A DNA stretch of 64,000 nucleotides. Origin: Escherichia coli (lineage in GTDB: Bacteria; Pseudomonadota; Gammaproteobacteria; Enterobacterales; Enterobacteriaceae). Positions 3,001 through 6,000 of this stretch are shown here, one piece after another (the first letter of the stretch is position 1; the number at the start of each line of letters is the position of its first letter). A program made the position numbers. The DNA is taken from NCBI RefSeq assembly GCF_001677475.2, contig NZ_CP015229.1; one strand, given 5' to 3'.

Positions 3001-6000
3001 GTTGTTAGCTCAGTCGGACAGAGCAATTGCCTTCTAAGCAATCGGTCACTGGTTCGAATCCAGTACAACGCGCCATACTTATTTTCCTGGCTCGCTTTTG
3101 CGGGCCTTTTTTGTATCCGCGCCACGCCCGGCGCATATCAAAAACCACAGAGCCTTTCAGGGGTGAGCTTACGGGATGGTCAGTGTGACTTTCTCTGTGG
3201 GCTGGTCACCCCCGGGCGCAGGCTCACCCACTAAAAGGAAAAGTCACGATGTTTGGTATTTTCAAAAAGAAAACACGCAAGGCCATTACCGAAGTGAAGA
3301 AGATGGAGAACCGCGACGCAGTGGAGGCGACCGTCTGGGGCGCGTATTCCATTGCATTTGCCGACGGCACCTGTGACGCGAAAGAAATCGCGGTACTGGA
3401 GAAAACCATTGCAGCACTTCCTGCCTTTGCTCCGTTCTCGGGTGAGATTGCACAAATGAGTGCAAATATCCGCGCCCGTTATGAAGCATCGCCGCGTTCT
3501 GCCAATGCCGAAGCCCTCCGCCAGCTGGCTGATATTGCAGGTACTGATGACGCAGTTAATGTGCTGTGCCTGTGTCTGGATATCGCTGACCAGGACGGCA
3601 TTGGCCCGGATGAAGAAGCGCAACTGAAGAAAATTGCTCAGGCGCTGCAGCTACCACTGGAGCAGTACCTGTGAAAAGTGCGCGCCTTGTGCTGGCTGCC
3701 ATCCTGCTGTTTCTGGTAGTGGCAGTGGATTTCACCGGACGGCTGATGTCGGTACTGGCAGATGGTGTGCTGGTGGCGGGGATGGTGATAATGGTGTTGC
3801 CTTTGCTGAAGAGTGTAAAAAATACACAGACGTGAAATGTTAAATCCATCACAATTAAGTTGATTGGGTATTGCTGGTTGACGGAGCTTTTGTTAGAAAA
3901 AATTTGCATGGTGGATCCCCCCGGGTGGTGGGCATATGAGTGATGTATGTTTCTGTTCTGCTCCTTTATTATGCTGATTCGGGTACTGATACTGAATTCA
4001 TCGGGAGGCACCCGGCACCATGCAAGCATGCCCCTCTCCTGAGGGGCTTTTTATATAAACAGGTTCTACAGATTCTATCAGACATGCGTAAACTTATTAT
4101 GGCCTGTGTCGTTTTAGCCCGTAGGGGCATATTTGCAGAATGCAACGGTTATTAAAGCATTCATTAAATACGTTATCTGAATTTGCAGGGCATTCTTGGC
4201 TGTTTTTGATTAAATCCCAGAATCTTTTATTGAATGGTACAACGTTGTAAATGGTTACAGGTAGCACTTTGTTATTGAGTACGATACCTGTGTGAGTCAG
4301 CGTAAATATACTTTCAGGAGGTAAGAAAACATCCGATTGATACCAGATTATTAATTTTATTTTACTCCATATGGCTGAAAAAGATATTCCACATGATGGC
4401 TGGATAACTGTATCAATCACAATCCACTTCATTTAGTTTCCTTATTTATGCCTTGCTGGTGATGTTCTGAAAAGTATAAATGATAATTTTGAATGTAAAC
4501 CATAGAGCAGAACTGTTTTTCTGATTTTGTTTATTGTTTATTTAAAATGCAGGGTGGTTTATATCTCGTCTTGTAGTTTATCCATGCATATCTGCTTTAT
4601 GATGAGGTTTTATTTAAAGTATGGTTTTGTGTTTTTTTCTGTATTGCATGTCAGGTATTTTAAAGAATTATTTTTTAGATGGTGGAAAGAACCATGGCAT
4701 TTAAACACTATGATGTTGTCAGGGCGGCGTCGCCGTCAGATCTTGCGGAAAAGCTGACACACAAACTGAAAGAGGGCTGGCAGCCATACGGCGGACCGGT
4801 TGCCATTACGCCGTACACACTGATGCGGGCGGTGGCTATTGAAGGAGAGCCACAGGTCGGCCCTTCATCTGAGCCGGACTGGTTCTACGTGGTTGTGCTT
4901 ACCGGACAGTCCAACAGCATGGCCTACGGTGAAGGGCTTCCGTTACCGGATTCTTACGATGCTCCGGATCCGCGCATTAAACAGCTGGCGCGCCGCAGCA
5001 CGGTAACTGGCATTTTTAGCAGAGCCTGAATGCCATAATCACGGCTCCCGGAGTTGGCCGTCAGTGGGTGACACGGGCGGCTTTTTGTTTTTCTTTACTT
5101 TCATTTTCTGTCGGCGGGGACGGAGACATACATCATATGGAAAAAATTACAACAGGTGTGTCATACACCACGTCAGCGGTGGGGACGGGATACTGGTTAC
5201 TGCAGCTGCTGGACAGGGTTTCCCCGTCTCAGTGGGCGGCAATAGGCGTGCTGGGGAGTCTGCTGTTTGGTCTGCTGACGTACCTGACGAACCTGTATTT
5301 CAAAATTAAAGAAGACCGGCGTAAGGCGGCGCGGGGAGAGTAGACGATGAACCATGAAGAAATGAATCAGCGCATAAGTTGCCTGGAAAATGAAATCACT
5401 GAACTGAATAAAAAACTGTCGGTGCTGATGGTTTCTGAAGATGAAAAAAAACGCCGCGATGAGCAGGAAGCAGCGTTTTACGATGATTGCATCAAAATTG
5501 CTCGCAGGACCTTTGCGAAGATTTTGCAGGAAAAGTTTTTACCGACCGCATTGTCAGAAAAGCACTCCATTACAGTTAAAAGTGCCGGAGAGGAAGGCAA
5601 TAAACGTTATTTTATTGCGTCTGCACCGGATAAAGACCAGGAATGGGGGGGGGAATCGGCCATCTTTTATTGTGACAAGCGATGACTGGAATATCACGAT
5701 CCGTGAAGATGGAAAAGTAACACCAGCATCGCACCAGCACAGTGAGGCGCTCATTGAATTTGCCATTGATTACCTGAAGAACAATAAAAAGCAGGGACTA
5801 ATGAAGCGCATTGGTCGTTGCATGGGATATCTGCAGGTAGCTGCTGAGATTGAAGCGCTGGCCAGTGGTGCGGACAAGGATGCTGTTGTGCGGGAGGCTC
5901 TTCTTCGTGATTTTGATAATCCACCCTTTAAAAAAGTGCCGGCTTACTGGTTTCATCCAGGACTGACTTATCTTAAAGGACGTATATAAGCTGGCTCGTT

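What the first reader, a model, noticed from the sequence alone, without database searches (positions are those of the whole stretch)
4097..4432. Prophage-encoded paralog of the RpoS anti-adaptor IraM
The 111-aa minus-strand product is clearly homologous to chromosomal iraM in this same window (46557-46880), with shared motifs across the whole length. It lies in an AT-rich island inside the prophage late region on the opposite strand, which suggests independent regulation. A phage-borne IraM-like protein could stabilise RpoS in lysogens.
Basis: partly seen in the sequence, partly recalled or inferred. Interest (0 to 1): 0.6.

Follow-up and report, generated by a model that had tools for sequence, protein, structure and literature searches.

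The report
Prophage copy of RpoS stabiliser IraL

Summary
Window 4097-4432 (-) is an intact 111-aa ORF. It is 62% identical (E 7e-54) to the 107-aa iraM beside icd (46557-46880), and it sits antisense in a 30-36% GC island between the prophage Q-like antiterminator and the lysis genes.

It is not new. The protein is 100% identical to RefSeq WP_038813346.1, which is annotated 'anti-adapter protein IraM'. It is 89% identical (93.5% nt) to CFT073 IraL (c1429).

Hryckowian et al. 2014 showed that IraL binds RssB and doubles the σS half-life in log phase. The window prophage sits at potC|potB, as in CFT073, and the gene occupies the same slot (Q, tRNAs, DUF3927, iraL antisense, truncated nanS-p, holin).

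About 330 bp upstream is ~95% identical to CFT073. This stretch includes the RACE-mapped start site, the -10 and the RBS.

Other evidence:
- NCBIfam NF007393 scores above its cut-off.
- The model matches IraM in PDB 8TWD (rmsd 1.1 Å).
- 11 of 15 RssB-contact residues are identical and 4 are conservative.
- dN/dS against CFT073 iraL is 0.32.

Side observations are a convergent STnc100 sRNA, an invariant four-Cys tail motif and a PhoP-box-like repeat upstream.

The parts
4097..4432 (-). iraL-type anti-adaptor gene (111 aa, stop codon included)
   Evidence: ORF. NF007393 scores 163.9 bits, above its cut-off of 121. 100% identical to WP_038813346.1. 89% identical to CFT073 IraL. Residues 1-78 match PDB 8twd_A at E 6e-33. 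The AF2 model against 8TWD gives TMt 0.90 and rmsd 1.1 Å.
4433..4465 (-). 33-nt 5' UTR. The inferred transcription start is A at 4465 and the AAGGA ribosome-binding site is at 4443-4439.
   Evidence: The RACE-mapped 5' end of CFT073 iraL mRNA is ACATCACCAGCAAGGCATAAACAAGGAAACCA (PMC4045071). The window reads ACATCACCAGCAAGGCATAAATAAGGAAACTA at the aligned position, with 2 substitutions. The start site is inferred by homology and was not measured here.
4473..4499 (-). σ70-type promoter: -10 TATACT (4478-4473) and a -35-like TTTACA (4499-4494) with a 15-nt spacer
   Evidence: Both hexamers are identical in the window and in CFT073. The paper assigns σ70 dependence. The hexamer assignment is mine. 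The consensus scanner missed this promoter because it requires a 16-18 nt spacer.
4433..4678 (.). AT-rich intergenic region (about 30% GC) between iraL and the truncated nanS-p gene. It contains a PhoP-box-like repeat at 4528-4544.
   Evidence: Composition. About 95% identical to the CFT073 iraL upstream region. The repeat has 1 mismatch to KGTTTA-N5-KGTTTA. 3.9% of local shuffles give an equal hit. The block is conserved in other iraL loci.
3877..4052 (+). STnc100 prophage sRNA, convergent with iraL. Its terminator hairpin is at 4030-4047, 50 nt past the iraL stop codon.
   Evidence: Rfam RF02076 scores 93.7 bits against a gathering score of 47. Terminator-like hairpin followed by a T-run. 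The same convergent pairing occurs in CFT073, in strain PI7 and in Stx2c phage 1717.
46557..46880 (-). Chromosomal iraM, the paralogue used for the comparison
   Evidence: ORF. NF007393 scores 168.8 bits. Annotated iraM in strain 08-00022 at the syntenic position after icd.
836..1531 (+). Q-like late antiterminator ORF. It marks the start of the late operon to which iraL is antisense.
   Evidence: ORF. Its position after the DUF968 and RusA ORFs matches that of the antitermination proteins of CFT073 and PI7. It had no NCBIfam hit, so its identity rests on position only.
4679..5029 (+). Truncated DUF1737/nanS-p remnant (116 aa), divergent from iraL
   Evidence: ORF. Annotated as a partial DUF1737 pseudogene in the syntenic records. 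The full-length SASA esterase occupies the same position in PI7 and in phage 1717.
33691..34554 (-). potB, the chromosomal gene just beyond the right end of the prophage
   Evidence: ORF. Annotated potB in the collinear record, which is 98.3% identical over 22 kb. In that record and in CFT073 the integrase lies next to potC.

Best explanation
The gene is a slightly divergent allele of iraL, the prophage-borne member of the IraM/IraL/RssC family of RssB anti-adaptors. It is carried as a moron. In the lysogen it is transcribed from its own σ70 promoter, antisense to the silent phage late operon. Its N-terminal PmrD-like β-barrel (residues 1-78) binds RssB, the response-regulator adaptor. RssB then cannot hand σS (RpoS) to ClpXP, so σS is stabilised even during exponential growth. 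The strain also keeps chromosomal iraM behind an unrelated promoter, giving it two homologous anti-adaptors with separate inputs. Shown here: homology, fold, conservation of contact residues and promoter, synteny, and purifying selection. Taken from the literature on the 89%-identical CFT073 protein: RssB binding and σS stabilisation. Inferred: that this particular allele behaves the same way.
For: The protein is 89% identical to CFT073 IraL over all 111 residues. It is 100% identical to a RefSeq protein named anti-adapter protein IraM. NF007393 scores above its curated cut-off. The predicted fold matches RssB-bound IraM (8TWD: TMt 0.90, rmsd 1.1 Å, 66% identity) and then the PmrD structures. 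All 15 IraM residues reported to contact RssB (PMC10844676) are identical (11) or conservatively replaced (T13S, L75I, H63N, I64V). None of the 12 differences from CFT073 IraL falls on those positions. dN/dS is 0.32 against CFT073 iraL and 0.14 against iraM. The upstream ~330 bp is about 95% identical to CFT073 and includes the mapped TSS, the -10 and the RBS. The integration site (potC|potB) and the slot in the prophage are the same as in CFT073. Published function of IraL: deleting iraL halves the σS half-life in log phase, from about 5 to about 2.5 min. Complementation from the native promoter restores it. Introducing iraL raises σS in K-12. Two-hybrid and pull-down assays show binding to the RssB N-terminal domain (PMC4045071).
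Against: No experiment exists for this allele. It is 93.5% identical to CFT073 iraL at the nucleotide level (22 substitutions in 336 bp), outside the ≥95% range reported for all iraL matches in 2014. It has 12 substitutions, 7 of them in the C-terminal tail, and the last four residues are RHRP rather than QQSP. The role of the tail is unknown. There are two substitutions in the 5' UTR, one in the promoter spacer and one between the -10 and the TSS, so expression level could differ. The allele is rare: only 27 of 20,395 E. coli records reach ≥95% nt identity.
Confidence: 0.85

Rival explanations
1. The gene is a decaying relic of prophage cargo. It is still an open reading frame but is no longer expressed or functional. 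Its neighbours are degraded: nanS-p is truncated, and gpJ is annotated as partial in the collinear genome.
For: The adjacent nanS-p gene is cut down to 116 aa. gpJ is annotated as incomplete in the collinear record. The -35/-10 spacer is a suboptimal 15 nt. The allele is rare.
Against: The ORF is intact and full length. It is 100% identical to the copy in strain 09-00049, which sits in a different prophage at another chromosomal position, and 15 records carry the gene at ≥99% nt identity. dN/dS of 0.32 indicates purifying selection. All family-invariant residues are kept. The same 15-nt-spacer promoter is active in CFT073.
Confidence: 0.04
2. The protein acts as a connector on a response regulator other than RssB. 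This would resemble the structurally related PmrD, which binds phospho-PmrA. Its effect would then not be on RpoS.
For: The fold is PmrD-like. The family is diverse: about 50 clusters at 50% identity, going down to 21% identity to this protein. IraL and IraM already differ in which RssB domains they bind.
Against: The RssB-contact residues of IraM are conserved here. The 89%-identical CFT073 protein binds RssB and stabilises σS. PmrD itself shares only 14-19% identity with this protein.
Confidence: 0.04
3. The gene mainly serves the phage rather than the host. Raising σS in lysogens could damp SOS or induction or alter superinfection outcomes. On induction, late antisense transcription from the Q-dependent promoter would switch the gene off.
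For: The position is fixed in many lambdoid phages and prophages: antisense, between Q/tRNA/stx and the nanS-p and lysis genes. This includes Stx2c phages 1717 and 2851. Forty-six phage records carry a family member.
Against: No data link IraL to prophage induction. This idea does not exclude the anti-adaptor mechanism; it only reassigns who benefits. The published phenotype concerns host σS stability.
Confidence: 0.07

Closest known systems
IraL of uropathogenic E. coli CFT073 (c1429 / C_RS06710, WP_000871291.1; Hryckowian et al. 2014, PMC4045071)
   Same: Both are 111 aa and share 89% identity. Both lie in a lambdoid prophage integrated at potC|potB. Both occupy the same antisense slot between the Q/tRNA genes and the truncated nanS-p and holin genes. 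The upstream region is about 95% identical, including the mapped TSS and the -10. STnc100 is the convergent neighbour in both.
   Different: There are 12 amino-acid substitutions: A20V, V35A, V51M, R70T, D73N, A83T, S85T, F89L, I98T, and the final RHRP versus QQSP. Nucleotide identity is 93.5%, below the ≥95% range reported in 2014. Here TerB-family and DUF3927 genes and tRNA-Met/Arg lie upstream. CFT073 instead has IS200, tRNA-Ile/Arg/Arg and DUF3927.
IraM of E. coli K-12 (PhoP-induced anti-adaptor; structure 8TWD, PMC10844676), and the iraM copy in this window
   Same: Same family (NF007393). Same PmrD-like fold. Conserved RssB-contact residues. Same four invariant tail cysteines.
   Different: Only 62% identical, and 107 rather than 111 aa. 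The promoter and flanks are unrelated. iraM is chromosomal and lies next to icd. It is induced by Mg2+ starvation and binds both RssB domains, whereas IraL binds only the N-terminal domain and acts in unstressed log phase.
IraM-like genes of Stx2c/Stx2a phages (for example phage 1717 gp43 and phage 2851)
   Same: Same family. Same antisense slot, directly downstream of the stx2 or tRNA position and upstream of nanS-p and the holin. STnc100 lies between stx2B and the gene.
   Different: About 76% amino-acid and 78% nucleotide identity, and 107 aa. The upstream region has diverged and carries a consensus TATAAT -10. I found no functional study of these genes.
PmrD (PhoP-induced connector that protects phospho-PmrA)
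   Same: The β-barrel fold is shared: Foldseek E 5e-4 to 4e-3, TM 0.72-0.75. Both are small proteins that bind a response-regulator receiver domain.
   Different: Sequence identity is 14-19%. PmrD has no Cys-rich C-terminal tail and a different target (PmrA rather than RssB).

Membership tests
IraM/IraL/RssC anti-adaptor family (NCBIfam NF007393) | Whole-protein score above the curated NCBIfam cut-off | tested here: met
   163.9 bits against a cut-off of 121, covering residues 1-110 of the protein and positions 1-113 of the 114-position profile.
IraM/IraL/RssC anti-adaptor family (NCBIfam NF007393) | PmrD-like antiparallel β-barrel plus helix in residues 1-78 | tested here: met
   In the AF2 model, pLDDT is 81-95 over residues 1-80. 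The best PDB match is 8twd_A, IraM bound to RssB, with TMt 0.90 and rmsd 1.1 Å; the PmrD structures come next. The phmmer hit to 8twd_A has E 6e-33.
IraM/IraL/RssC anti-adaptor family (NCBIfam NF007393) | Conservation of the IraM residues that contact RssB (clusters I-III and Pro66) | tested here: met
   11 of 15 are identical and 4 are conservative replacements (T13S, L75I, H63N, I64V). The window's own iraM also has N63.
IraM/IraL/RssC anti-adaptor family (NCBIfam NF007393) | Physical binding to RssB and rssB-dependent stabilisation of σS | not testable with these tools
   This was shown for CFT073 IraL and for K-12 IraM in the literature, not for this allele.
IraL subgroup (as opposed to IraM) | Closer to CFT073 IraL than to IraM, with 111-aa length and the four-residue C-terminal extension | tested here: met
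   89% identity to IraL against 62% to IraM. The alignment shows that only the IraL-type sequences extend beyond residue 107 by four residues.
IraL subgroup (as opposed to IraM) | ≥95% nucleotide identity to CFT073 iraL. This is the empirical range seen in 2014, not a formal definition. | tested here: not met
   Identity is 93.5% (22 substitutions in 336 bp). I therefore call it a divergent iraL-type allele rather than the canonical allele. 1414 records fall in the 90-95% band relative to the window, which is the CFT073 type. Only 27 records are ≥95%.
IraL subgroup (as opposed to IraM) | The iraL promoter, mapped TSS and 5' UTR are present upstream | tested here: met
   About 95% identity over roughly 330 bp. 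The -10 TATACT and the -35-like TTTACA are identical. The TSS context is ACATCACCAGC. Promoter activity itself was not tested.
IraL subgroup (as opposed to IraM) | Carried on the potB-integrated lambdoid prophage (the 'potB genomic island') | tested here: met
   In the window potB is at 33691-34554, immediately right of the tail-fibre genes. In the collinear genome and in CFT073 the integrase lies next to potC.

The most novel reading that the evidence does not exclude
Three untested side observations could add something new about the IraL/IraM family, though not about this gene's identity. First, the tail cysteines C81, C97 and C102 are invariant and C92 is ≥90% conserved down to 21% identity. 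They form a CP(G)N…C-x4-C-x4-CP(Y/F)G motif. The crystallised IraM construct lacked this region, so it might be a metal- or redox-sensing module that controls anti-adaptor activity or stability. Second, a conserved PhoP-box-like repeat lies 63-79 bp upstream of the iraL start. It could wire the prophage copy into PhoPQ, as iraM is. Third, the convergent pairing with the STnc100 sRNA in all four loci examined could form a co-regulated module.
Probability: 0.12. Interest if true: 0.45.

Novelty: already known. Interest (0 to 1): 0.12.

Why it matters
The result confirms that this strain carries two homologous RssB anti-adaptors, chromosomal iraM and prophage iraL. Hryckowian et al. already noted this situation for some isolates. 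It may raise σS in growing cells and so affect stress tolerance. The only added value here is descriptive. A rarer iraL allele occupies the same cargo slot that holds stx2 and an iraM-like gene in Stx2c phages, and a few family-level features (the Cys4 tail, the upstream repeat, the STnc100 neighbour) have not been discussed in the papers I could read.

Tried and rejected
1. Pfam-A scan of the protein: no hit even at E ≤ 10. The large protein database lists precomputed PF11183 hits for every family member. I take this as a library-version difference, not evidence against homology.

2. The consensus promoter scan did not report the iraL promoter, because its spacer is 15 nt. I located the promoter by alignment to the RACE-mapped CFT073 sequence instead.

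3. I looked for shared flanks between the iraL and iraM loci, which would suggest recent duplication or a shared prophage remnant. There are none: similarity stops at the CDS ends.

4. I suspected that the prophage AraC-like ORF (2082-2795) might relate to AppY-driven iraM induction. The AppY paper states that AppY stabilises RpoS independently of IraP, IraD and IraM, so I dropped the link.

5. PhoP box: there is no box overlapping the -35. The only candidate is the inverted upstream repeat. A local-shuffle frequency of 0.039 is too weak to claim regulation.

6. AF2 gave no confident structure for the Cys-rich tail (pLDDT 48-59), so the Zn-knuckle idea remains untested.

7. The representative search also returned about 100 long repetitive proteins that match only profile positions ~2-47, several times each. 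I treated these as β-strand repeat noise and did not pursue them.

Full report
**Observation**

The ORF at 4097-4432 on the minus strand is real. It has an ATG start and encodes 111 aa. BLASTP against the 107-aa ORF at 46557-46880 (-) gives 66/107 identities (62%), 78% positives and no gaps, with E 7e-54 over the full length.

That second ORF lies 103 bp after icd (45204-46454). It is annotated iraM in the closest complete genome. The finding's ORF lies in a trough of 30-36% GC (4051-4650) flanked by 53-56% GC.

It is antisense to the surrounding phage genes. In order these are:
- DUF968, RusA and a Q-like ORF (836-1531);
- an AraC-family ORF;
- tRNA-Met and tRNA-Arg (2822-3075);
- TerB-family and DUF3927 ORFs;
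- the finding's gene, on the opposite strand;
- a truncated DUF1737/nanS-p ORF (4679-5029);
- holin and lysozyme.

**Identity**

Both ORFs hit NCBIfam NF007393, 'anti-adapter protein IraM', above the curated cut-off of 121 bits. The scores are 163.9 and 168.8 bits. The window protein is 100% identical to RefSeq WP_038813346.1, which PGAP already names 'anti-adapter protein IraM' in the same gene context.

Across 5,426 complete E. coli genomes the gene's relatives fall into discrete nucleotide-identity classes:
- ≥95%: 27 records, this allele;
- 90-95%: 1,414 records;
- about 78%: O157:H7 Stx2c prophages;
- about 70%: K-12-type iraM.

The 90-95% class is the iraL gene of CFT073. CFT073 C_RS06710 (c1429) is 111 aa and 99/111 (89%) identical to the window protein.

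**Known function of the orthologue**

Hryckowian et al. 2014 (PMC4045071) identified IraL, formerly called ycgW, in CFT073. It is a homologue of IraM with 58.9% amino-acid identity and lies 'on the potB genomic island'.

Deleting iraL lowers σS in log phase and halves its half-life, from about 5 to about 2.5 min. The native-promoter gene complements the deletion and raises σS in K-12. [quoted passage not shown]

The authors also noted that some strains carry both iraL and iraM. That is the situation in this window.

**Synteny**

The window is collinear with strain 08-00022 at 98.3% over 22 kb. There the prophage lies between potC, next to the integrase, and potB. In the window potB is at 33691-34554, just right of the tail-fibre genes.

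CFT073 has a lambdoid prophage at the same site with the same local order. That order is antiterminator, IS200, tRNA-Ile/Arg/Arg, DUF3927, iraL (antisense), truncated DUF1737, holin, lysozyme.

The slot recurs elsewhere:
- O55:H7 DEC5B and pig isolate PI7 carry the exact CFT073 protein there. In PI7 it sits next to a full-length SASA esterase.
- Phage vB_EcoS-640R1 has an IraL-type gene, 89.2% identical to the window protein, in that slot.
- Stx2c phage 1717 has a 107-aa family member directly downstream of stx2cAB and upstream of the esterase and holin.
- In all, 46 phage records encode a family member.

**Regulation**

The 5' end of iraL mRNA was mapped by RACE in CFT073. The window sequence aligns to it with two substitutions. 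This places the inferred start at 4465 (-) and gives a 33-nt leader with an AAGGA ribosome-binding site.

A TATACT -10 sits at 4478-4473 and a TTTACA -35-like hexamer at 4499-4494. The hexamer assignment is mine. Both are identical in CFT073. About 330 bp upstream is roughly 95% identical between the two strains.

Similarity between the iraL and iraM loci of the window stops at the coding-sequence boundaries.

Other published data on CFT073 iraL:
- its levels rise in a fur mutant (PMC7157518);
- its mRNA rises 1.6 log2-fold on a shift from 23 to 37 °C (PMC12890032).

**Protein-level checks**

Residues 1-78 match the crystallised IraM fragment (8twd_A, E 6e-33). An AlphaFold2 model built on a 45-sequence alignment has pLDDT 81-95 over residues 1-80. 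Its best PDB matches are IraM bound to RssB (TMt 0.90, rmsd 1.1 Å) and then three PmrD structures.

Of the 15 IraM residues reported to contact RssB (PMC10844676), 11 are identical and 4 are conservatively replaced. None of the 12 differences from CFT073 IraL falls on these positions.

Nei-Gojobori dN/dS is 0.32 against CFT073 iraL and 0.14 against the window's iraM. Both values indicate purifying selection.

**Mechanism, with status of each step**

The gene is prophage cargo (a moron) transcribed from its own σ70 promoter in the lysogen. The promoter is inferred by homology to a mapped one. The product's PmrD-like domain binds RssB. The fold and contact residues are shown here, and binding is shown only for the CFT073 orthologue.

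RssB then cannot deliver σS to ClpXP, and σS is stabilised in growing cells. This too is shown only for the orthologue. During lytic growth, Q-dependent late transcription would run antisense through the gene, which is inference. I put the confidence that this allele is a functional RssB anti-adaptor at about 0.85.

**Rivals**

- A decaying relic. The intact ORF, its identity across different prophages and the dN/dS value argue against this.
- A connector for a different response regulator. The conserved RssB-contact residues and the orthologue's behaviour argue against this.
- A primarily phage-serving role. This is compatible with the same mechanism.

**Novelty**

The finding is correct and correctly interpreted, but it rediscovers IraL. 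The only departure is that this allele is 93.5% identical to CFT073 iraL at the nucleotide level, just outside the ≥95% range reported in 2014. It has a different C-terminal tetrapeptide, RHRP rather than QQSP, and it is rare. I rate it 'already known' with low interest.

**Side observations, not part of the verdict**

1. An STnc100 sRNA (RF02076) lies at 3877-4052 (+), convergent with iraL. Its terminator hairpin (4030-4047) is 50 nt beyond the iraL stop codon. The same pairing is present in CFT073, PI7 and phage 1717. STnc100 downstream of stx2 is known, but the papers I read do not mention the iraL/iraM neighbour.

2. Across 45 family members, down to 21% identity, C81, C97 and C102 are invariant and C92 is ≥90% conserved. 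The crystallised IraM lacked this tail, and the paper describes it as less conserved and flexible.

3. A PhoP-box-like direct repeat with one mismatch lies 63-79 bp upstream of the inferred iraL start and is conserved among iraL loci. Only three hits of that quality occur in the window, one of them the perfect box beside phoP. However, 3.9% of local shuffles reproduce such a hit.

4. iraM directly follows icd here with no e14 element between them. iraM therefore lies outside e14, although the 2014 paper describes it as on e14.

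Noticed in passing
window 3877-4052 (+); also L003 33250-33439, L008 4362-4551, L005 5335-5546: An STnc100 prophage sRNA (Rfam RF02076) lies convergent to the iraL/iraM-like gene in all four loci examined. Its 3' end is 10-50 nt from the anti-adaptor stop codon, so the two transcripts probably share a terminator hairpin (4030-4047). The STnc100 papers I read do not mention the anti-adaptor neighbour.
   Followed up: partly
window 4097-4192 (-), protein residues 81-111: The C-terminal tail carries four cysteines. C81, C97 and C102 are invariant and C92 is ≥90% conserved across 45 family members, down to 21% identity (pattern CPGN…C-x4-C-x4-CPYG). They are more conserved than almost all of the RssB-binding domain. 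The IraM crystal construct omitted this tail, and AF2 gives it low confidence. It may be a metal or redox site.
   Followed up: partly
window 4528-4544 (+): A PhoP-box-like direct repeat, TGTTTATTGTTTATTTA (1 mismatch), lies 63-79 bp upstream of the inferred iraL start. It is conserved in CFT073, PI7 and phage 640R1 and partly in Stx2c phage 1717. A local-shuffle frequency of 0.039 makes it only a weak lead. The perfect box at 40590-40606 next to phoP served as a positive control.
   Followed up: partly
window 2082-2795 (+): An AraC-family regulator ORF (237 aa) lies between the Q-like gene and the tRNAs. It resembles YdeO and GadX but scores far below their equivalog cut-offs. From memory, it may belong to the PatE/Psr-type prophage acid-resistance regulators. 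It is absent from the otherwise closest genomes, which carry a different HTH gene at that position.
   Followed up: partly
window 46455-46880: iraM begins 103 bp downstream of the icd stop codon, with no e14 element in between. iraM is therefore a chromosomal neighbour of the e14 attachment site rather than e14 cargo, contrary to the wording in PMC4045071.
   Followed up: partly
window 3249-3835 (+): A TerB-family ORF (141 aa) and an overlapping DUF3927 ORF (54 aa) occupy the position downstream of the tRNAs. This is where stx genes sit in Stx phages. Their function here is unknown.
   Followed up: no
window 4679-5029 (+): The nanS-p-type gene (DUF1737 plus SASA esterase, about 640 aa in phage 1717 and PI7) is truncated to 116 aa. 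It is annotated as a partial pseudogene in syntenic genomes.
   Followed up: partly
protein searches: My Pfam-A scan found nothing for the protein, yet the large database lists precomputed PF11183 hits for all family members. The family profile also drew about 100 long (350-3000 aa) proteins with 3-10 short matches to profile positions ~2-47. I assumed these are repeat noise and did not examine them.
   Followed up: no
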